This document shows, piece after piece, positions 46,053 through 51,127 of a stretch of 64,000 nucleotides of DNA. A model generated the notes under the pieces. It was given only the letters and a program-made list of their open reading frames with translations. It ran no database searches and was not told the DNA's origin. This DNA is from Thermoanaerobaculia bacterium. GTDB lineage: Bacteria; Acidobacteriota; Thermoanaerobaculia; Multivoradales; UBA5704. Position numbers and translations under genes: made by a program. Every line of letters begins with the position of its first letter. Positions within the stretch are counted from its first letter, which is position 1. Location of the stretch: assembly GCA_044226625.1 (NCBI GenBank), contig JBGAGQ010000005.1, forward strand, positions 1-64,000. The letters run 5' to 3'.

Positions 46053-47243
46053 TCAGTAGTCGATGTACCCGTCCCGCGTCCGCACCCGGACTCCCGAAGC
46101 CTTCACGCGGACGTCGACCTTGTGCCAGCGGCCGTCGTTCTTGTTCGAGGTGCAGTAGTAGGAGAGGGCGTACTGCTCGCGGAGCTCTTCGAGGATGCCT
46201 CGGAAGGCGGAGGTGAAGTCTTCGTTCTTGGCGATGCGGACGATGCGGCCGCCGCTTTCGTCGATTGCCTTTTCGAGCTGGTCGAACTCGCGGTCGTTCG
46301 CCTTCCAGTTGCGCCACGCGGAGGTGAAGGACTTGTGTTTTCCGTCATCGTCGAGAGCGATCCAGTAGATCAGCGCTTGGCTCACCCGTGCCTCGCGGAG
46401 GACTTCCGACATCGGCAGCACGCTGTGGATGTCGGAGCCGTCGGAAAGCAGGACGACGACGCGGCGGCCCTGGTGCGATTCGAGGATTTTGAGCCCGGCG
46501 AAGAGGTAGTCGTTCACCGCCGAGCCGCCCGCCGCCTCGACCTTTTCCAGAGTCTTGTTGAGCAGAGCCTGGTCGTTCGTGATCGGCGTGCTCGCCATCA
46601 GGCGATCGGAGAACAGGAGGACGCTCGCCTGGTCCTCCGGGCGCATGCCCGCGACGAAGGCGCGCGCGCCCTTGAGCGCCGCGTCGATCCGCTCGCCGCG
46701 CATGCTCTCGCTGCTGTCGATCAGGAGGACCGCCGAGAGCGGCAGCTCGCCACGGTCGAAGGCGACCAGCTCCTGCTCCTGCCCATTGTCGAAGATCCGG
46801 AAATCGCTCGGGTTCAGGTTGAGCACCCGCTGGCGGTCGCGGAGCACGGTGGCGTAGAGCTGCTGCAGCTCGAGGTCGAGCCGCTCGTCGATCTGCACCG
46901 GCGAGGTGGTGAGGGCGTCTGAAGCGCTTGAGCCGGAGGCGCCGTAGGCGACGACCCGAAACTCGCGCGCAACGTTCTGGTCGCCGGCGTTCCAGGTCAA
47001 CTTGTACGGAGGCGTCGCGACCGAACCGACCGAGCGGCCGCCGACGAAGAACTCCACCCGGGAGATCGGCTCGTTGCCCGCGACCGCCGCGGTGAGCTCC
47101 GTGGGACCGAAGACCGGTTGGCCGGGCTCGGGGCTGGTGATCTTCACCTGGATCGTCGCGAAGGCGGCCTGGGCGGCGCCGAGCGCGCCAAGCCCGCAGA
47201 GCAGGAGACGAAGCGTGAGGGCGAGGTGGGGGGAACGATTCAT
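46053..47243 (-). CDS. Secreted Ig-like + VWA domain protein (paralog of 23687-24883)
   Basis: VEFFVGG..PPY; DSSESM MIDAS; LLSDG; ELREQYALSY; VRTRDGY. Confidence 0.88.
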   Translation of the reverse strand: MNRSPHLALTLRLLLCGLGALGAAQAAFATIQVKITSPEPGQPVFGPTELTAAVAGNEPISRVEFFVGGRSVGSVATPPYKLTWNAGDQNVAREFRVVAYGASGSSASDALTTSPVQIDERLDLELQQLYATVLRDRQRVLNLNPSDFRIFDNGQEQELVAFDRGELPLSAVLLIDSSESMRGERIDAALKGARAFVAGMRPEDQASVLLFSDRLMASTPITNDQALLNKTLEKVEAAGGSAVNDYLFAGLKILESHQGRRVVVLLSDGSDIHSVLPMSEVLREARVSQALIYWIALDDDGKHKSFTSAWRNWKANDREFDQLEKAIDESGGRIVRIAKNEDFTSAFRGILEELREQYALSYYCTSNKNDGRWHKVDVRVKASGVRVRTRDGYIDY

Positions 47244-48364
47244 CGCGCCACCCCGTCCGCGGCGGGGGCCGCGCTGACGCCGGAGGAGAGCGAAGAGGCG
47301 AGCGTCACCAAGCGGACCTTTCCCGCCGGTTCGACCACCCGGTCCGAGTCGTCGAACAGCTCGTCGGAGAAGCGGTTGTAGCGATAGCGTGAGTCGTCGC
47401 CCGGATCCGCGCCGATCTCGGCGAGGCGGTCGAGCACCGAGCGAGCTTCCTGTTGCGCCCCCTTGGCGTCCAGCACCGAGGCGAGCTGGAGCGTCAGCCG
47501 CGCCGAACCCGGGAATTTCTGGAGCGCCGCACGCAGGACCTTCTCGGCCTGCTCCGGGCGCTTGGCATCGACCTCGATCCGCGCGAGCTCCTGAGCCGCG
47601 AGCAGGCCGATCCAGGGCGCCGGGGGTACCTCGGCGAGGGGTGCCAGGAGCTTCTTCGCGTCCCCTCCGCGATCGAGGCGCGCGAGGCAGATGGCGAGGC
47701 GAAGGGCGGCTTCGGGATATTTCGAGAGGCTTTGCGGATCGCCCGAGCGCATCCTCTCGATCGCCGCGATCGCGTCCTCATAATTGCCGTTCTTTTCGAA
47801 CACGGTGGCGAGGCCGAGCAGCGAGACGCTGTTGCGTGCGTCGGCCTGCGCGGCGAGCTCGAACAGCTTCGCGGCTTGGAACGAGTCGGTCGAGACGCTG
47901 CCCAGACGGGAGATCAGGCGGCTCGCGAGCGCCGACGCTTCGGGGGTATCGACGTATTTCTTATAGAGGAGGGCTAGGTCGAGGGCGATCGTGCGGTCGT
48001 GGGTCGCAACCTGCGCGGCGCCGATGCCGCCGTGCTTCGTGTAGTAGCGGTAGGCCTCTTGGTGAAGGACCGACAGCGGAACCAGGACTTCGAGGTCGAC
48101 GGCGGCCACTTCGGAGATCACCCGCTGCTCGGCCTTGTGCAGCACCTCGCGGGTCTGCGGCGCTTCGTCGGAGATGATCGACGATTCGAACTTGACCAGC
48201 TCGGGCACAGCCCGCGCGTCGCCTGCCGCCCAGAGGCCGAGGACGGCGCGATACCCGCCTTCGAGGAGCGCCGGGTCTAGATCCGCCGCTCGGGCTCCCC
48301 CGGAAGTCAACAAGCAAAGAACGATCAGAGGCGCCCAGTTTGTGCGCGAGCGGTAAACAGCCAT
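47240..48364 (-). CDS. Secreted TPR protein (paralog of the C-terminal half of 24880-27096)
   Basis: Signal peptide; EAALRLAICLARL, LAAQELARI; ATGA overlap with the VWA gene. Confidence 0.78.
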   Translation of the reverse strand: MAVYRSRTNWAPLIVLCLLTSGGARAADLDPALLEGGYRAVLGLWAAGDARAVPELVKFESSIISDEAPQTREVLHKAEQRVISEVAAVDLEVLVPLSVLHQEAYRYYTKHGGIGAAQVATHDRTIALDLALLYKKYVDTPEASALASRLISRLGSVSTDSFQAAKLFELAAQADARNSVSLLGLATVFEKNGNYEDAIAAIERMRSGDPQSLSKYPEAALRLAICLARLDRGGDAKKLLAPLAEVPPAPWIGLLAAQELARIEVDAKRPEQAEKVLRAALQKFPGSARLTLQLASVLDAKGAQQEARSVLDRLAEIGADPGDDSRYRYNRFSDELFDDSDRVVEPAGKVRLVTLASSLSSGVSAAPAADGVAR

Positions 48365-48485
48365 GTCGGATTTCCCCCGTAATGAGACGGGGAAAGAATC
48401 TCGCAATTCGGAAGGGCTCGCAACCGCCTGGGGACCGGGCCGGCCCGGAGTGCCGCCAAAGCCCGGGGAGGAGGGATGGCCGGCG

Positions 48486-48509
48486 AAAGGGGAGCGATCG
48501 CTCCCCTTT
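48486..48509. terminator. Palindromic terminator after the TPR gene
   Basis: AAAGGGGAGCGATCGCTCCCCTTT perfect palindrome. Confidence 0.75.
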
Positions 48510-48527
48510 GGCGCATACCGGTCGAAG

Positions 48528-49835
48528 CTAGATGCTCAAATTCTCCTGCCGGCGCAAACGGCCGGACACCCTGCGGAGCAGTCGCGCGAGCTCGGACGTC
48601 GCTCGCTCGTGATCGATCGCCCGGCGCAGGACGAGCAGCGCTGCCACCGCCTCGCGGCGAATGCCGAGCGCTCGGAAGGTCTCGAGGATCTCTTCGACGC
48701 TCTCGAGAATCTCGGCGGTCCGTCCCTGCTGGAGCCAGAGCATCGCGAGATCGAGCGAAACCACGGCAGCTTCGATCGGCAGGCCGCGGCTCTCGAATTC
48801 GTCGTGGACCTCCCAGAGGCCGAGCTCGGCCGCTTCGAGGTCGCCGCGGCCCGCTTCGATCCGCCCTTCGAGCCAGCGCAGCTTCAACTGGTTGATCGCC
48901 GTCCCGCGCTGCTCGTACAGCGCCCGGCTCGCGGCGATCCAATGGGCGGCCTGTTCGTAGGCGCCCGCCTCGACCGCGCCGATCAAAAGGTTGTGGATCG
49001 CCGACAGGGCGAGGGCCGGCTCGCGGCTTGGGTCGATCTGCGCCAGGCCGTGGGCGATGTACCGGCTCGACTCCTCGAACTCGTTTTCATAGAGGAGCGC
49101 GATGCCGTGGCTGATCAGCGCGCGACCGGCGAGATGGCGCTCGCCCGCCGCCCGATGCAGCTCGTAGATCTCTTCGAGAAGCCGGCAGGCCTCGCGGAAC
49201 CGGCGCTGCGAGATGCGGAGCGACGCGGTGAGGTCGAGGATGCGGGCGTACAGCTGGCGGTCTCCGGTACCGCGCTCGGCGCGAAGCAGCGCCTCGGCGA
49301 ACGCGCTCTCCGAGCCCTGGACGTCGGCCGCGATGCGGAGGGCGTTGCCGAGCTCGGACCAGGCGCGCGCCTGGAAGTCGGCGCGATCGGCGGGGCTGCC
49401 GTCGGCGGAGCCGAGCGAGTCGGCCAGGTGGGCCGCCAGGCGGGCGAGGGTGACCATGCCGGCCGGATCGCTCGCGCGCAGGGCCCAGCTCTCGACCAGC
49501 AGGGTCGTGCAGCGCTCCCGTCCCTTGGTCAGAGGCGAGGCGAGGCGCGCCTGCTCGGCGAGCTCGATCTCGCGGTTCCTCTCGGAGATCTCCCGACGCG
49601 CCGAGGCGACGGCGCGATCGATCGGTCGATCGTAGGCCGACAGGTCGAAGGTCGGCTGCTCGCGCAGGGGGTGAAAGACCGAGCGGACCATGGGGGCGAG
49701 GAGATCCGCGCAGTGCGCGCAGCCGCGCAGGAGATGGGCGATGATCGGCTTGCCTTCACGGGGCGAGAGCTCGGCGCGCAGAAATGCCCAGAGTCGCTCC
49801 GGCTCCGGATGGGTCGTTTGAGATTCGAAGCTCAT
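48528..49835 (-). CDS. Cytoplasmic protein with N-terminal zf-HC2/ZAS-like motif and TPR solenoid
   Basis: HPEPERLWAFL..AHLLRGCAHC, then ARAWSELGNALRI, ARILDLTASL, GRALISHG, LRWLEGRI, SLDLAMLWL helical repeats; no signal peptide or TM. Confidence 0.8.
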   Translation of the reverse strand: MSFESQTTHPEPERLWAFLRAELSPREGKPIIAHLLRGCAHCADLLAPMVRSVFHPLREQPTFDLSAYDRPIDRAVASARREISERNREIELAEQARLASPLTKGRERCTTLLVESWALRASDPAGMVTLARLAAHLADSLGSADGSPADRADFQARAWSELGNALRIAADVQGSESAFAEALLRAERGTGDRQLYARILDLTASLRISQRRFREACRLLEEIYELHRAAGERHLAGRALISHGIALLYENEFEESSRYIAHGLAQIDPSREPALALSAIHNLLIGAVEAGAYEQAAHWIAASRALYEQRGTAINQLKLRWLEGRIEAGRGDLEAAELGLWEVHDEFESRGLPIEAAVVSLDLAMLWLQQGRTAEILESVEEILETFRALGIRREAVAALLVLRRAIDHERATSELARLLRRVSGRLRRQENLSI

Positions 49836-49904
49836 CGAGTTGCTCCAGAACTGTCCCACCAGCGATTGAAGGATCTCACGAAATGTCCGGCCGCGTCACA
49901 ACGA

Positions 49905-49938
49905 AATCGAGATCGATCGAAATCGATCGATCTCGATT
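49905..49938. repeat. Perfect 16-bp inverted repeat between the peptide and TPR genes
   Basis: AATCGAGATCGATCGA-AA-TCGATCGATCTCGATT. Confidence 0.85.
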
Positions 49939-49988
49939 CGGACCGCGACTCCGCCGAGCCTTTCGATCTCAAGGGATCCACTTGGATC

Positions 49989-50282
49989 TCAATGGACGGT
50001 TGGCGCGGACGGATTGGCGGACGCGTCGTGCGACGGCTGAAGCGGCACGTCGTTCGGGTCGATGGCGATGCCGTACTCGCCCCAGATCGAGGTGGCGGCC
50101 GACCGGCCCGTGTCCCATAGAGAGCCGAGCCAATGCGAGAGGGCGCTGGTGATCACCTCGGAAAAAGACGAATCCGCCGAAGCCGACAACGGCCGGCCCT
50201 CGAACGGAGCCGCCCAGGAGGGAGCCGAACCGAGGAACAACAACATCGCGAGTACCAGGGATCCCTTCGACTTGCTCGACAT
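49989..50282 (-). CDS. Small secreted (pro)peptide, 97 aa
   Basis: GGAGGAG RBS; signal peptide MSSKSKGSLVLAMLLFLGSAPSWA; Trp-containing amphipathic segment; WGEYGIAIDPND motif; TAGAAT -10-like box upstream. Confidence 0.72.
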   Translation of the reverse strand: MSSKSKGSLVLAMLLFLGSAPSWAAPFEGRPLSASADSSFSEVITSALSHWLGSLWDTGRSAATSIWGEYGIAIDPNDVPLQPSHDASANPSAPTVH

Positions 50283-50432
50283 CGCGCAACTCCTCCCGCA
50301 GACCGGCCGGCCAGTTCCGACGTGGCGCGGAAAAATTCTACGTTCTGAGAAATGGGGTGCGGCCGCAAGCCATTCCGTGACAAGCAAATCGGCGCGAACG
50401 CAACGACGAAGCGACTTGGGTCAAATCTCCCG

Positions 50433-50455
50433 GGCCAGGGCGTTTTGCCCTGGCC
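50433..50455 (-). terminator. Hairpin after phoU
   Basis: GGCCAGGGC-AAAAC-GCCCTGGCC immediately after the phoU stop. Confidence 0.6.
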
Positions 50456-50458
50456 TGA

Positions 50459-51127
50459 TCAGGTCGTTTTGGTCGCCAGCGGGTGGCGGACGTCACGCCC
50501 GTCGACGAAGTAGACGACATCTTCGCCGATGTTGGTCGCGTGGTCGGCGATCCGTTCCAGGTTGCGCGAGATCAGCAGCAGGTGGAGCGCCCGGCTGACC
50601 GTCTTCGGATCCTCGATCATGAAAGTCAGCAGCTCGCGGAAGATCTGCTTGTAGAGCGCGTCCACCTCGTCGTCCCGCCGACAGACCGCCTGCGCCAGCT
50701 CGGAATCACGCCGCACCAGGGCGTCGAGACTCTGGCGGACCATCTCCTGGACCAGCCGAGAGAGGTGGGGCAGGTCGATATACGGCTTGAGCGGCGGCTG
50801 GTCGACCAGCTGCTCGACCGACTGGGCGATGTTGACCGCCGAATCGCCGATTCGCTCGAGGTCGCTGTTGATCTTCATCACCGCGACCAGGAACCGCAGG
50901 TCGATCGCGATCGGCTGGCGCAGGGAGAGCGCCGCATGGCAGAGCTCGTCGATCTCGATCTCCATCCGGTCGATGTCCTGATCGCTCGCGATCACCTGGC
51001 GACAGAGCTCGCGGTCGCGCTCGAGCAGCGCCCGAGTCGCTCGCGCGACCATCTCCTCGACCTTGCCTCCCATGCGCAAGAGACTTTGGCGAATGCGGTC
51101 GAGGTCTTGATCCAATCGGCGTTCCAT
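50459..51127 (-). CDS. phoU: Phosphate signalling complex protein PhoU
   Basis: QPIAIDLR, DLERIGD, DDEVD, LERIADHATNI; AGGAG RBS. Confidence 0.95.
   Translation of the reverse strand: MERRLDQDLDRIRQSLLRMGGKVEEMVARATRALLERDRELCRQVIASDQDIDRMEIEIDELCHAALSLRQPIAIDLRFLVAVMKINSDLERIGDSAVNIAQSVEQLVDQPPLKPYIDLPHLSRLVQEMVRQSLDALVRRDSELAQAVCRRDDEVDALYKQIFRELLTFMIEDPKTVSRALHLLLISRNLERIADHATNIGEDVVYFVDGRDVRHPLATKTT

What the first reader, a model, noticed from the sequence alone, without database searches (positions are those of the whole stretch)
48486..50345. Candidate peptide-signalling pair: secreted propeptide plus zinc-finger/TPR cytoplasmic receptor (RRNPP-like logic in a diderm)
Seen in sequence: a self-contained two-gene cassette bounded by the phoU hairpin and a palindromic terminator. 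Gene 1 is a 97-aa ORF with strong RBS, Sec signal peptide, a Ser-rich spacer and a short motif WGEYGIAIDPND. Gene 2 is a 435-aa soluble protein with an N-terminal HLLRGCAHC motif (HxxxxCxxC, close to the HxxxCxxC ZAS motif of zinc anti-sigma factors) followed by TPR-like helices. Established knowledge: RRNPP systems (Rap/Phr, PlcR/PapR, AimR/AimP) pair a small exported propeptide with an adjacent cytoplasmic TPR receptor and are described mainly in Firmicutes and their phages. Inference: this may be an undescribed peptide communication system in which a processed GxxIDPN peptide is re-imported and controls an anti-sigma-like output domain.
Basis: partly seen in the sequence, partly recalled or inferred. 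Interest (0 to 1): 0.85.

Follow-up and report, generated by a model that had tools for sequence, protein, structure and literature searches.

The report
Secreted peptide paired with TPR anti-sigma
A small exported protein gene sits beside a soluble zinc-finger/TPR regulator gene, and this pair recurs many times in this soil-type acidobacterium and its relatives, so it looks like an undescribed family of peptide-signal and receptor pairs, although binding has not been shown.

Summary
Both genes lie on the minus strand. The small ORF is 49989-50282 (97 aa): signal peptide, one Trp-rich helix, then WGEYGIAIDPND. The second ORF is 48528-49835 (435 aa): an N-terminal zinc-binding anti-sigma domain of ChrR/ZAS type, then an eight-repeat TPR superhelix.

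The pair is not a one-off. The genome has 22 paralogs of the TPR protein, and 17 have an adjacent small signal-peptide protein with the same C-terminal motif, (D/E)xGxxIDP(N/D)G. So do 17 of 19 related loci in relatives and 66 of 79 loci in named Thermoanaerobaculia/Acidobacteriota MAGs (HMM counts).

Some paralogs replace the zinc finger with an XRE HTH domain. Two follow an ECF sigma gene directly.

The motif is at or near the C-terminus (43 of 100 within 3 residues). It is often Cys-bracketed or repeated.

The family was found only in the window's own order. No name or paper for it was found.

The pair meets the five-point operational RRNPP signature, in a phylum where that signature has not been reported. 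Binding, processing, re-import and the sigma partner are untested. The complex prediction gave no verdict.

Best reading (about 0.5): cognate peptide/TPR-receptor modules with anti-sigma or HTH outputs.

The parts
49989..50282 (-). Small exported protein (97 aa, P0001). It is a member of a large family built as signal peptide, then a Trp-rich helix, then a linker, then (D/E)xGxxIDP(N/D)G.
50211..50282 (-). Signal peptide, residues 1-24 (K-rich n-region, hydrophobic core, SWA/AP site).
   Evidence: Read. FLGSAP..WA is invariant in 19 of 19 orthologs. 98 of 103 family members pass a simple signal-peptide rule. The model has a helix at residues 7-19. No SignalP run was possible.
50073..50168 (-). 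Amphipathic Trp-containing helix of the mature protein, residues 39-70.
   Evidence: AlphaFold2 on alignment A7 gives a helix at 39-70 with block pLDDT of 84-94 over residues 41-70. W51 is present in at least 90% of 46 family members.
50049..50084 (-). Core motif WGEYGIAIDPND, residues 67-78. The family consensus is (D/E)xGxxIDP(N/D)G. This copy has D where the consensus has the last G.
   Evidence: dN/dS is 0.16 over residues 63-80.
50290..50297 (-). Shine-Dalgarno-like GGGAGGAG, 7 nt before the ATG.
   Evidence: Conserved in 7 of 7 genus orthologs with one G/A change.
50327..50391 (-). Conserved upstream block (…TTGTCACGGAAT…GCACCCC…GAACG.AGAATTTTTCCGCG). Candidate promoter or operator of the small gene.
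   Evidence: Alignment of 7 genus orthologs. No sigma-70-type site was found by the scan. The function is inferred.
49836..49988 (-). Intergenic region between the two genes. It holds a conserved element, TTCGTGAGATCCTTCAATCGC (49862-49882), about 35 nt before the TPR gene. It also holds a genome-specific insertion of about 85 nt with a 16-bp-arm palindrome.
   Evidence: the insertion is absent from 6 of 6 genus orthologs; it is single-copy in the genome.
48528..49835 (-). Soluble 435-aa protein (P0002): ZAS-type anti-sigma domain plus TPR superhelix.
   Evidence: No TM-like segment: Kyte-Doolittle 19-residue maximum is 1.44 for this copy, and 21 of 22 paralogs are below 1.6.
49677..49811 (-). 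Zinc-binding anti-sigma-like domain, residues 9-53. Ligands are H9, H34, C39 and C42 (H-x24-H-x4-C-x2-C).
   Evidence: The four residues are invariant in 35 of 35 sequences and 32 of 32. Profile A4 hits ChrR 2q1z_B at E 7.8e-6 and DdvA 8rlz at 5.9e-4. 19 of 32 members hit Pfam zf-HC2 at E<0.1.
48543..49523 (-). TPR superhelix, residues about 105-431. It includes the ELGNxxR motif (N164, R167).
   Evidence: pLDDT is mostly above 90. VIA Z is 26.5 to the LGN TPR and 21-22 to RapI/RapH/NprR. R167 is invariant and N164 is present in at least 90% of sequences.
48489..48506 (.). 18-nt perfect palindrome GGGGAGCGATCGCTCCCC, just after the stop of the TPR gene. Possible terminator.
   Evidence: Read. 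Not listed by the terminator scan.
50433..50455 (.). Hairpin after the phoU stop. It forms the upstream boundary of the cassette.
   Evidence: Read. PhoU was identified.

Best explanation
The window holds one copy of a lineage-specific two-gene signalling module.

Gene 1 makes a small protein that the Sec system exports. Outside the cytoplasm it consists of one amphipathic Trp-rich helix and a C-terminal turn motif, (D/E)xGxxIDP(N/D)G.

Gene 2 makes a cytoplasmic protein with two parts. Its N-terminus is a zinc-binding anti-sigma domain of the ChrR/ZAS kind. Its remaining roughly 330 residues form a peptide-binding-type TPR superhelix.

Proposed mechanism:
1. The TPR superhelix is the receptor for the product of the neighbouring small gene.
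2. That product is most likely a C-terminal peptide that is released outside the cell and taken up again.
3. Ligand binding changes what the N-terminal domain does. It either holds or releases an ECF sigma factor. In paralogs where an XRE HTH replaces the zinc finger, it binds DNA instead.
4. Each paralogous pair would then be a private signal channel, working like Rap-Phr or other RRNPP pairs.

Shown here:
- The pairing and its recurrence.
- Purifying selection on the signal peptide and the motif.
- The identity of the domains.
- The interchangeable output domains.
- The occasional sigma neighbour.

Inferred: secretion, processing, uptake, binding, and the identity of the sigma partner of this copy.
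For: Pairing:
- 17 of 22 paralogs in the genome have an adjacent family member of the small protein. Ten are upstream on the same strand and 7 are in other orientations.
- 17 of 19 loci from relatives do. L013 is added by a motif rule.
- 66 of 79 named MAG loci do. Four more are found by the motif rule, and 3 of the remaining 9 have under 135 upstream bases.

Small protein:
- 100 of 103 members carry the strict motif.
- G is at position -4 in 114 of 128 motifs, and I is at position -1 in 95 of 128.
- 23 of 100 end exactly at the final G, 43 within 3 residues and 98 within 25.
- 20 of 103 have 2-4 motif copies.
- dN/dS is 0.16 in the core against 0.5-0.6 in the flanks.
- A profile of the family finds 3563 representative proteins at E<=0.001 and 369 at E<=1e-10. 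All 13 of 13 sampled show the same build.

Receptor:
- The four zinc ligands are invariant.
- The N-terminal profile hits the ChrR anti-sigma domain.
- The TPR fold matches peptide-binding TPRs: LGN at Z 26.5, and Rap/NprR at Z 21-22, some of those solved with pheromone.
- No TM segment was found.

Output swapping:
- Paralogs on C57, C5 and C13 have HTH_31/HTH_3 in place of the zinc finger and still sit next to motif proteins.

Sigma link:
- On contig C76, two paralogs start 4 and 8 nt inside the end of a Sigma70_r2/r4 gene. One cluster reads small ORF, then sigma, then ZnF-TPR.

Other points:
- The pair meets all five criteria of the operational RRNPP signature quoted from PMC10075063 (passages).
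- Distances between TPR domains and between small proteins correlate weakly among 17 paralog pairs (Mantel r 0.205, p 0.019). This shows co-duplication, not binding.
- One OppA-type binding protein gene exists in the genome. This is permissive only.
- Contigs of one RNA library lie on both genes.
Against: - No direct evidence of binding, processing or uptake.
- The two proteins are predicted to be in different compartments, and the organism is presumably diderm, so a peptide would have to cross two membranes to return.
- 34 of 128 motifs are bracketed by cysteines. This suggests disulfide loops that act outside the cell and would be reduced in the cytoplasm.
- A universal motif shared by all paralogs is unlike Rap-Phr specificity. 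It could equally be a handle for a common protease, exporter or extracellular target.
- The pro-region helix is conserved across the family. As far as I recall, this is not typical of RRNPP propeptides.
- This locus has no adjacent sigma gene. Only 2-3 of 22 paralogs in the genome do, and only 3 of 79 MAG loci do.
- Fold and sequence similarity to Rap/NprR is no better than to designed consensus TPRs.
- The window copy has D instead of the near-universal final G, so this copy may be atypical.
- The RNA-library contigs do not prove transcription.
Confidence: 0.5

Rival explanations
1. Regulator and target, without direct contact. The ZnF-TPR (or HTH-TPR) protein is a dedicated transcription regulator of the neighbouring gene. 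The small protein is the output: an exported effector such as a membrane-active or antimicrobial peptide, an adhesin-like or metal-binding loop peptide. The TPR domain senses something else.
For: - The exported Trp-rich amphipathic helix and the Cys-bracketed, repeated loops look like features of extracellular effectors.
- Conserved non-coding blocks lie upstream of both genes, and many small genes carry a structured leader. These point to regulated expression.
- An HTH or anti-sigma output domain fits a regulator.
- The two proteins are predicted to be in different compartments.
Against: - It does not explain why almost every small gene keeps its own ligand-binding TPR regulator through dozens of duplications.
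- It does not explain why the conserved motif sits at the extreme C-terminus, as in pheromone precursors.
- No biosynthetic, immunity or export genes recur beside the pair. The only other recurrent neighbour is an XRE HTH gene.
Confidence: 0.25
2. Capture before export. The TPR domain binds the small protein precursor in the cytoplasm, and Sec export of the precursor frees the regulator. This would be partner switching coupled to secretion, in the manner of type III secretion TPR chaperones or FlgM (comparison recalled).
For: - It removes the need for re-import across two membranes.
- The closest fold, LGN, binds long extended or helical segments. A conserved 30-residue helix plus motif would suit that (ligand type recalled).
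- There is a weak Pfam hit to a type III secretion TPR family, HrpB1_HrpK, at E 0.042, below the cut-off.
Against: - Sec substrates are normally exported quickly.
- Dozens of specific pairs are hard to justify for a secretion monitor.
- Cys-bracketed loops suggest that the folded state matters outside the cell.
Confidence: 0.12
3. No functional coupling beyond co-inheritance. The small ORFs and the TPR genes are neighbours that were duplicated together. The small proteins might be, for example, bacteriocin-like products with an unrelated neighbour, or part of a larger system not recognised here.
For: - The Mantel correlation shows only co-duplication.
- Orientation varies: 7 of 17 pairs in the genome are not upstream on the same strand.
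- Three small-family members in the genome stand alone.
Against: Adjacency holds across paralogs at about 30-45% identity, in several orientations and in many genomes. It also survives replacement of the N-terminal domain. Neutral linkage would not be expected to do this.
Confidence: 0.08

Closest known systems
RRNPP(A) peptide quorum-sensing pairs of Bacillota and their phages (Rap-Phr, NprR-NprX, PlcR-PapR, AimR-AimP)
   Same: - A small Sec-signal propeptide gene lies directly beside a 250-500-aa cytoplasmic TPR protein.
- The conserved element sits at the C-terminal end of the propeptide.
- Some propeptides carry tandem repeats of the element.
- Many paralogous pairs occur per genome.
- Some receptors carry an N-terminal HTH.
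- The TPR fold aligns with RapI/RapH/NprR at Z 21-22.
   Different: - The taxon is Acidobacteriota (Thermoanaerobaculia), presumably diderm.
- Most receptors carry a zinc anti-sigma domain, not an HTH or a phosphatase-type bundle.
- One motif is shared by all paralogs.
- A helix in the pro-region is conserved.
- Many motifs are Cys-bracketed.
- Sequence similarity to Rap/NprR (E 4e-5 to 2e-4) is weaker than to consensus designed TPRs.
- Binding and import were not tested.
ZAS-type anti-sigma factors (Pfam zf-HC2; ChrR of Rhodobacter sphaeroides, PDB 2Q1Z; DdvA, PDB 8RLZ)
   Same: - The N-terminal roughly 90 residues align with the whole ChrR anti-sigma domain (profile positions 6-98 against chain residues 3-90).
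- Four conserved zinc ligands are present.
- A C-terminal sensor domain follows, as in ChrR.
- Two paralogs are translationally coupled to an ECF sigma gene.
   Different: - The spacing is H-x4-C-x2-C in this copy and most family members, not H-x3-C-x2-C.
- Pfam zf-HC2 scores are below the cut-off for this protein.
- No sigma gene is adjacent at this locus or at most loci.
- The sensor is a TPR superhelix.
- A small exported protein is the constant neighbour.
LGN/Pins (GPSM2) TPR domain, a eukaryotic peptide-binding superhelix
   Same: - It is the best structural match: Z 26.5, 311 residues aligned, rmsd 4.1, and Foldseek E 1e-6.
- An LGN-like 'LGN' sequence motif is present (ELGNxxR, with N164 conserved).
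   Different: Eukaryotic cell-polarity protein with no zinc domain. The similarity is in fold only (14-18% identity) and says nothing about function.
STAND-type sensor TPRs (MalT, AfsR)
   Same: Weak family-level hits to the AfsR C-terminal TPR (NCBIfam, E 6.5e-8, far below the cut-off) and to TPR_MalT in paralogs and public homologs.
   Different: No NTPase or BTAD domain. Much shorter.

Membership tests
RRNPP (operational signature of RRNPP_detector, PMC10075063) | Propeptide is small (10-100 aa) | tested here: met
   97 aa. The criterion is quoted from passages read.
RRNPP (operational signature) | [quoted passage not shown] | tested here: met
   Tested by a simple rule only, without SignalP. 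The protein has a K/R n-region, at least 9 hydrophobic residues and a small-x-small site. 98 of 103 family members pass the rule. The signal region is invariant in orthologs. Export itself is inferred.
RRNPP (operational signature) | Receptor is 250-500 aa | tested here: met
   435 aa.
RRNPP (operational signature) | Receptor harbours TPRs | tested here: met
   Pfam TPR_12 at E 7.2e-6 (26.6 bits, below the 30.1 cut-off). Paralogs score above the cut-off. The model has about 8 TPR hairpins and matches TPR domains at Z 20-26.
RRNPP (operational signature) | Propeptide and receptor genes are direct neighbours (reference gaps -50 to 191 bp) | tested here: met
   153-nt gap on the same strand.
RRNPP (as a homologous family) | Receptor is homologous to Rap/NprR/PlcR/Rgg/AimR | tested here: inconclusive
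   A profile search of PDB sequences gives RapF at E 4e-5 and NprR at 2e-4, but consensus designed TPRs reach 1e-16. VIA Z is 21-22 for Rap/NprR against 20 for designed TPRs and 26.5 for LGN.
RRNPP (as a mechanism) | Mature peptide binds the TPR groove of the cognate receptor | not testable with these tools
   Needs binding assays or a confident complex model.
RRNPP (as a mechanism) | Peptide is re-imported by an oligopeptide permease | tested here: inconclusive
   The genome has one SBP_bac_5 (OppA-type) gene, at C90:8724-9827. Presence is only permissive.
ZAS anti-sigma factors (zf-HC2) | Four conserved zinc ligands in an N-terminal helical anti-sigma domain | tested here: met
   H9, H34, C39 and C42 are invariant in 35 of 35 sequences. 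The profile aligns with ChrR at E 7.8e-6 and over the whole domain.
ZAS anti-sigma factors (zf-HC2) | Literal H-x3-C-x2-C spacing and a Pfam zf-HC2 score above the cut-off | tested here: not met
   This protein has H-x4-C-x2-C. Its zf-HC2 score is 14.6-18.3 bits against a 22.2 cut-off. One paralog with H-x3-C reaches 22.3 bits. 19 of 32 members hit at E<0.1.
ZAS anti-sigma factors (zf-HC2) | Co-encoded ECF sigma factor | tested here: not met
   None lies within the cassette, whose neighbours are phoU and a TPR_19 protein. The feature is met for 2 of 22 paralogs (C76), and 3 of 79 MAG loci have a sigma gene within 3 kb.
ZAS anti-sigma factors (zf-HC2) | Binds and inhibits a sigma factor | not testable with these tools

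The most novel reading that the evidence does not exclude
Thermoanaerobaculia carry a large, previously unrecognised family of peptide-gated anti-sigma factors and HTH regulators. Each is paired with its own Sec-exported propeptide, whose C-terminal GxxIDPNG peptide is the signal. If so, this would be RRNPP-type cytoplasmic peptide sensing in a diderm phylum outside the Bacillota, wired to ECF sigma factors, with 20 to more than 40 private channels per genome.
Probability: 0.33. Interest if true: 0.9.

Novelty: new variant of a known kind. Interest (0 to 1): 0.74.

Why it matters
Genetically encoded peptide signals read by cytoplasmic TPR receptors are described for Bacillota and their mobile elements. 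The large RRNPP survey read here was run on Firmicutes and viruses. My searches found no paper linking RRNPP with Acidobacteria and no paper on the motif.

Acidobacteriota are abundant in soils and sludges and are hard to grow, and almost nothing is known about how they signal.

This family comprises:
- at least 544 protein clusters for the receptor;
- 3563 representative small proteins;
- about 20 pairs in this genome.

It would give a concrete, synthesisable set of candidate signals and receptors. It would also be a new way of controlling anti-sigma factors. Even if the small proteins turn out to be outputs rather than ligands, the module is a major unannotated regulatory family of this lineage.

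Tried and rejected
Tried without a usable answer:
- Complex prediction of full-length P0002 (alignment A1) with residues 25-97 of the small protein (alignment A2) scored 0.07 and 0.22 against a mark of 0.32. The verdict was 'no answer'. It counts neither for nor against binding.
- NCBIfam, Pfam and PADLOC gave nothing for the small protein. The protein atlas gave only unnamed Acidobacteriota clusters.
- Rfam at E<=1 on 7 loci gave only one irrelevant weak hit.
- RNAalifold on a MAFFT alignment of 26 leader sequences predicted no pairs. The alignment is out of register because loop lengths differ. I did not build a covariance model, so the leader hairpin remains a side note.
- The sigma-70 promoter scan found no site in 48300-50600. 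I could not assign a promoter type to the conserved upstream blocks, and I considered and dropped a sigma-54 reading because the spacing does not fit.
- Sequencing runs: in RNA-library run X2 no contig lay on 47000-48385. Absence of cover is not evidence. Runs X14 and X17 barely touched the stretch.
- The genome search across the phylum used one protein at E<=1e-20. Relatives too distant for that query could exist outside the order.

Considered and rejected:
- A transmembrane anti-sigma factor. No hydrophobic segment was found.
- The intergenic palindrome as a conserved operator. It is an insertion private to this genome.
- A defence system. There were no PADLOC hits for either protein.

A note of mine said 18 of 19 relatives' loci. 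The HMM count is 17 of 19, and the eighteenth (L013) comes from the motif rule.

Supplementary files of papers were closed and were not used. The supplements of PMC10075063 might list candidates outside Firmicutes that I could not see.
Full report
WHAT IS THERE

The small ORF (49989-50282, 97 aa) starts at an ATG 7 nt after GGGAGGAG. It reads:
- a K-rich start;
- a hydrophobic core and SWA/AP, which together look like a Sec signal peptide;
- a Ser-rich stretch;
- WGEYGIAIDPND at residues 67-78;
- a low-complexity tail.

After a 153-nt gap comes a 435-aa ORF (48528-49835) with HLLRGCAHC at residues 34-42.

The upstream gene is phoU. The downstream genes encode a signal-peptide TPR_19 protein and a VWA/Big_7 protein.

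A hairpin follows phoU (50433-50455), and an 18-nt palindrome follows the 435-aa ORF (48489-48506). The simple terminator scan listed neither.

THE LARGE PROTEIN

Pfam gives only sub-threshold TPR_12 and zf-HC2 hits.

In an alignment of 35 orthologs and paralogs, H9, H34, C39 and C42 are invariant.

Evidence on the N-terminal domain:
- A profile of the N-terminal 58 residues hits the anti-sigma factor ChrR (2q1z_B, E 7.8e-6) and DdvA (8rlz, 5.9e-4) among PDB sequences.
- The full-length profile aligns positions 6-98 with ChrR residues 3-90, which is the whole anti-sigma domain.
- 19 of 32 family members hit zf-HC2 at E<0.1.
- The spacing is H-x4-C-x2-C, one residue longer than the classical ZAS motif. 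The alignment to ChrR shows the one-residue gap.

Evidence on the rest of the protein:
- AlphaFold2 on the alignment gives a confident model (mean pLDDT 83.8, above 90 over most of residues 110-370). It has three short N-terminal helices, a long helix at 65-98, and about eight TPR hairpins.
- Foldseek and VIA-align put the TPR domain of LGN/Pins first (E 1e-6; Z 26.5, 311 residues aligned, rmsd 4.1).
- RapI (Z 22.1), RapH (21.4), NprR with NprX (21.2), RapF and phage Rap proteins follow. Designed consensus TPRs score Z 20.
- The fold is therefore a peptide-binding-type TPR superhelix, but homology to RRNPP receptors is not established.
- No hydrophobic segment long enough for a membrane span was found. 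The Kyte-Doolittle 19-residue maximum is 1.44 for this copy, and 21 of 22 paralogs are below 1.6.

THE PAIR RECURS

The window is contig C86 of a 6.6-Mb assembly of 133 contigs.

Paralogs of the large protein:
- phmmer finds 22 paralogs at E<1e-15 in the genome.
- Ten have a small ORF directly upstream on the same strand, with a signal-peptide-like start and [ILT]DP[NDHS][GN] near its end.

Search with an HMM of those ten:
- It found 14 further ORFs at E<1.
- Seven of them lie next to other paralogs, in convergent, divergent or downstream positions.
- Three look like true family members that stand alone (C60, C69, C125).
- Four look like chance hits.
- So 17 of 22 paralogs have their own small partner. 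One more (C76:154048) lies 875 nt from a partner already counted.
- Four have none detected. One of these is 864 nt from a contig end.

Background rate of the motif regex: 65 of 22157 ORFs of 60-200 aa.

In relatives:
- 17 of 19 best-matching loci have the small ORF by HMM. One more is found by a motif rule.
- In 79 loci from named genomes, all Thermoanaerobaculia, Acidobacteriota or 'Holophagales' MAGs, 66 have it just upstream on the same strand.
- Four more are seen by the motif rule.
- Of the 9 left, 3 have fewer than 135 upstream bases.

THE SMALL PROTEIN FAMILY

Statistics over 103 members:
- 98 pass a simple signal-peptide rule.
- 100 carry the strict motif.
- The consensus is (D/E)-x-G-x-x-I-D-P-(N/D)-G. 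G is at position -4 in 114 of 128 motifs, I is at -1 in 95, and the residue after DP is N in 83 and D in 30.
- The last motif ends the protein exactly in 23 of 100, lies within 3 residues of the end in 43, and within 25 residues in 98.
- 20 of 103 have 2-4 copies.
- 34 of 128 motifs are bracketed by cysteines.

Other evidence:
- Between signal peptide and motif lies a Trp-rich amphipathic helix. W51 is present in at least 90% of 46 members. AlphaFold2 predicts a helix at 39-70 with block pLDDT of 84-94 over residues 41-70, and the rest is coil.
- Among 19 public orthologs, the signal region and I-W-x-x-Y-G-I-A-I-D-P are invariant. Only the window's copy has D instead of G after DPN.
- dN/dS among 7 genus-level orthologs is 0.16 for the core, 0.28 for the signal peptide, and 0.52 and 0.58 for the middle and the tail.
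- A profile of 46 members finds 3563 representative proteins at E<=0.001 and 369 at E<=1e-10 among 1.84 billion. The best 150 are 77-203 aa long. All 13 of 13 sampled show the same build, with up to five Cys-bracketed repeats.
- All public names seen are 'hypothetical protein'.

VARIATION THAT BEARS ON FUNCTION

- Paralogs on C57, C5 and C13 have an XRE-type HTH (HTH_31/HTH_3) instead of the zinc domain. They still sit beside motif proteins, mostly of the Cys-rich multi-repeat kind.
- On C76 (152-159 kb) there are three ECF-type sigma genes (Sigma70_r2 plus r4), two ZnF-TPR genes and one small gene. Two ZnF-TPR genes begin 4 and 8 nt inside the end of a sigma gene. One run reads small ORF, sigma, ZnF-TPR.
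- Elsewhere sigma genes are rarely adjacent. Three of 79 MAG loci and none of 19 relatives' loci have one within the flanks fetched.
- The genome has 43 Sigma70_r2 matches.
- In 57 of 79 MAG loci a well-conserved 135-170-aa XRE HTH gene lies convergent, right after the ZnF-TPR gene. It is absent from the window's own ortholog group.

DISTRIBUTION

- With P0002 as query, 38 of 41 close relatives have matches. Many genomes reach the scoring cap of about 42. The 150 matches listed run from E 7e-278 down to 5e-53.
- In a sample of 151 genomes of the phylum, only 3 (all of the same order, the window's genome included) match at E<=1e-20.
- At least 544 protein clusters match at E<=1e-20 in the 5.8-billion collection. 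They are named only 'hypothetical', 'TPR repeat protein' or 'MalT-like region'.

EXPRESSION

One metatranscriptome library (X2) has contigs on 48510-48939, 49023-49358, 49401-49974 and 50020-50306. The last covers nearly the whole small ORF. The tool warns that DNA can be present in such libraries, so this is only compatible with transcription.

HOW IT MOST LIKELY WORKS

One feature stays constant through duplication, change of orientation and swapping of the N-terminal domain. That feature is the link between the TPR superhelix and a small exported protein with a C-terminal motif.

That is what one expects if the TPR is the sensor for the neighbour's product and the N-terminal domain is the output. 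The output would be sequestering a sigma factor, or binding DNA.

The pair meets the five criteria that RRNPP_detector uses (passages of PMC10075063):
1. a small propeptide;
2. a Sec signal;
3. a receptor of 250-500 aa;
4. TPRs in the receptor;
5. direct neighbours, with a gap inside the reference range.

Tandemly repeated motifs recall duplicated pheromone propeptides (PMC11343458, abstract only).

I therefore rate the signal-and-receptor reading at about 0.5. The re-import version is one part of it.

Against it:
- the compartment problem in a presumed diderm;
- the Cys-bracketed loops;
- a motif common to all paralogs;
- the conserved pro-region helix;
- no sigma neighbour at this locus;
- no binding evidence at all.

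Rivals:
- regulator and exported output without contact (0.25);
- capture of the precursor before export (0.12);
- mere co-inheritance (0.08).

COMPARISON AND NOVELTY

The module works like RRNPP pairs on paper and contains a ZAS-type anti-sigma domain. It is not shown to be a homolog of RRNPP receptors, it departs from the literal ZAS motif, and at this locus it lacks a co-encoded sigma factor.

Literature searches:
- 'RRNPP' with 'Acidobacteria': 0 papers.
- 'Thermoanaerobaculia' with 'sigma factor': 0 papers.
- 'IDPNG': 10 unrelated papers.
- In the ECF reclassification paper (PMC7826278, passages), the terms 'Acidobacteria' and 'tetratricopeptide' turned up no passage describing such an anti-sigma factor.

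I file it as a new variant of known kinds (peptide-TPR receptor pairs; ZAS anti-sigma factors).

Recalled rather than tested here:
- that LGN uses its Asn residues to hold peptides;
- that RRNPP pheromones come from the C-terminal end of the propeptide and return through Opp.

Noticed in passing
L056:4338-4823 (-) and 56 other genome-contig loci; in G000 near C124:7315-7788, C51:42033-42581, C76:31968-32465, C125:64849-65538: A well-conserved 135-170-aa XRE-type HTH gene (Pfam HTH_3, E 2e-7) lies convergent, immediately after the ZnF-TPR gene, in 57 of 79 MAG loci. It may be a third component, a DNA-binding partner of the TPR protein. It is absent from the window's ortholog group.
   Followed up: partly
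5' leaders of small ORFs, e.g. L069:2477-2549, L062:1256-1325, L104:2506-2569, L076:2486-2559: Many small genes are preceded by CCGCGGGC.CGG, then a 6-8-bp hairpin with loop (A)ATGGA, then a Shine-Dalgarno sequence. The 5' arm of the stem mimics GGAGG and the 3' arm is CCTCC-like. Stems differ between loci while staying paired (15 distinct 6-bp stems among 18 loci). The hairpin was found in 18 of 66 loci by a strict rule and 23 of 66 by a looser one. There is no Rfam match, and RNAalifold on a MAFFT alignment gave nothing. The window's own leader has only a weak version.
   Followed up: partly
window 49896-49985: An insertion of about 85 nt with a 16-bp-arm palindrome (AATCGAGATCGATCGA..TCGATCGATCTCGATT) lies between the small ORF and the TPR gene. 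It is absent from 6 of 6 genus orthologs and is single-copy in the genome.
   Followed up: yes
window 49862-49882; similar element in L064, L071, L077, L086, L087, L089, L112 just before the TPR gene: A conserved element, TTCGTGAGATCCTTCAATCGC, lies about 35 nt upstream of the TPR start. In a sister group it reads GTGAGACAATTRCGAGACATCT. This suggests that the TPR gene has its own promoter or operator.
   Followed up: no
window 50049-50051 (codon 78 of the small ORF): The window's copy has Asp where 18 of 18 public orthologs and 100 of 103 family members have the final Gly of the motif. No difference was listed at this place in the RNA-library contig that covers it.
   Followed up: partly
G000 contig C76, 152000-160000 (locus L026): A cluster of three ECF sigma genes, two ZnF-TPR genes and one small motif gene. 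Sigma and ZnF-TPR reading frames overlap by 4 and 8 nt.
   Followed up: partly
G000 C69:32356-33201 (+), C60:15875-16171 (+), C125:105990-106268 (+): Three small-family members have no TPR neighbour. The C69 protein is 281 aa, with at least four Cys-bracketed [IL]DPxG repeats.
   Followed up: no
window 46053-48406 (-): Downstream of the cassette lie a signal-peptide TPR_19 protein (388 aa) and a VWA/Big_7 protein (396 aa) with overlapping stop and start. They are unrelated to the ZnF-TPR family by the searches run.
   Followed up: no
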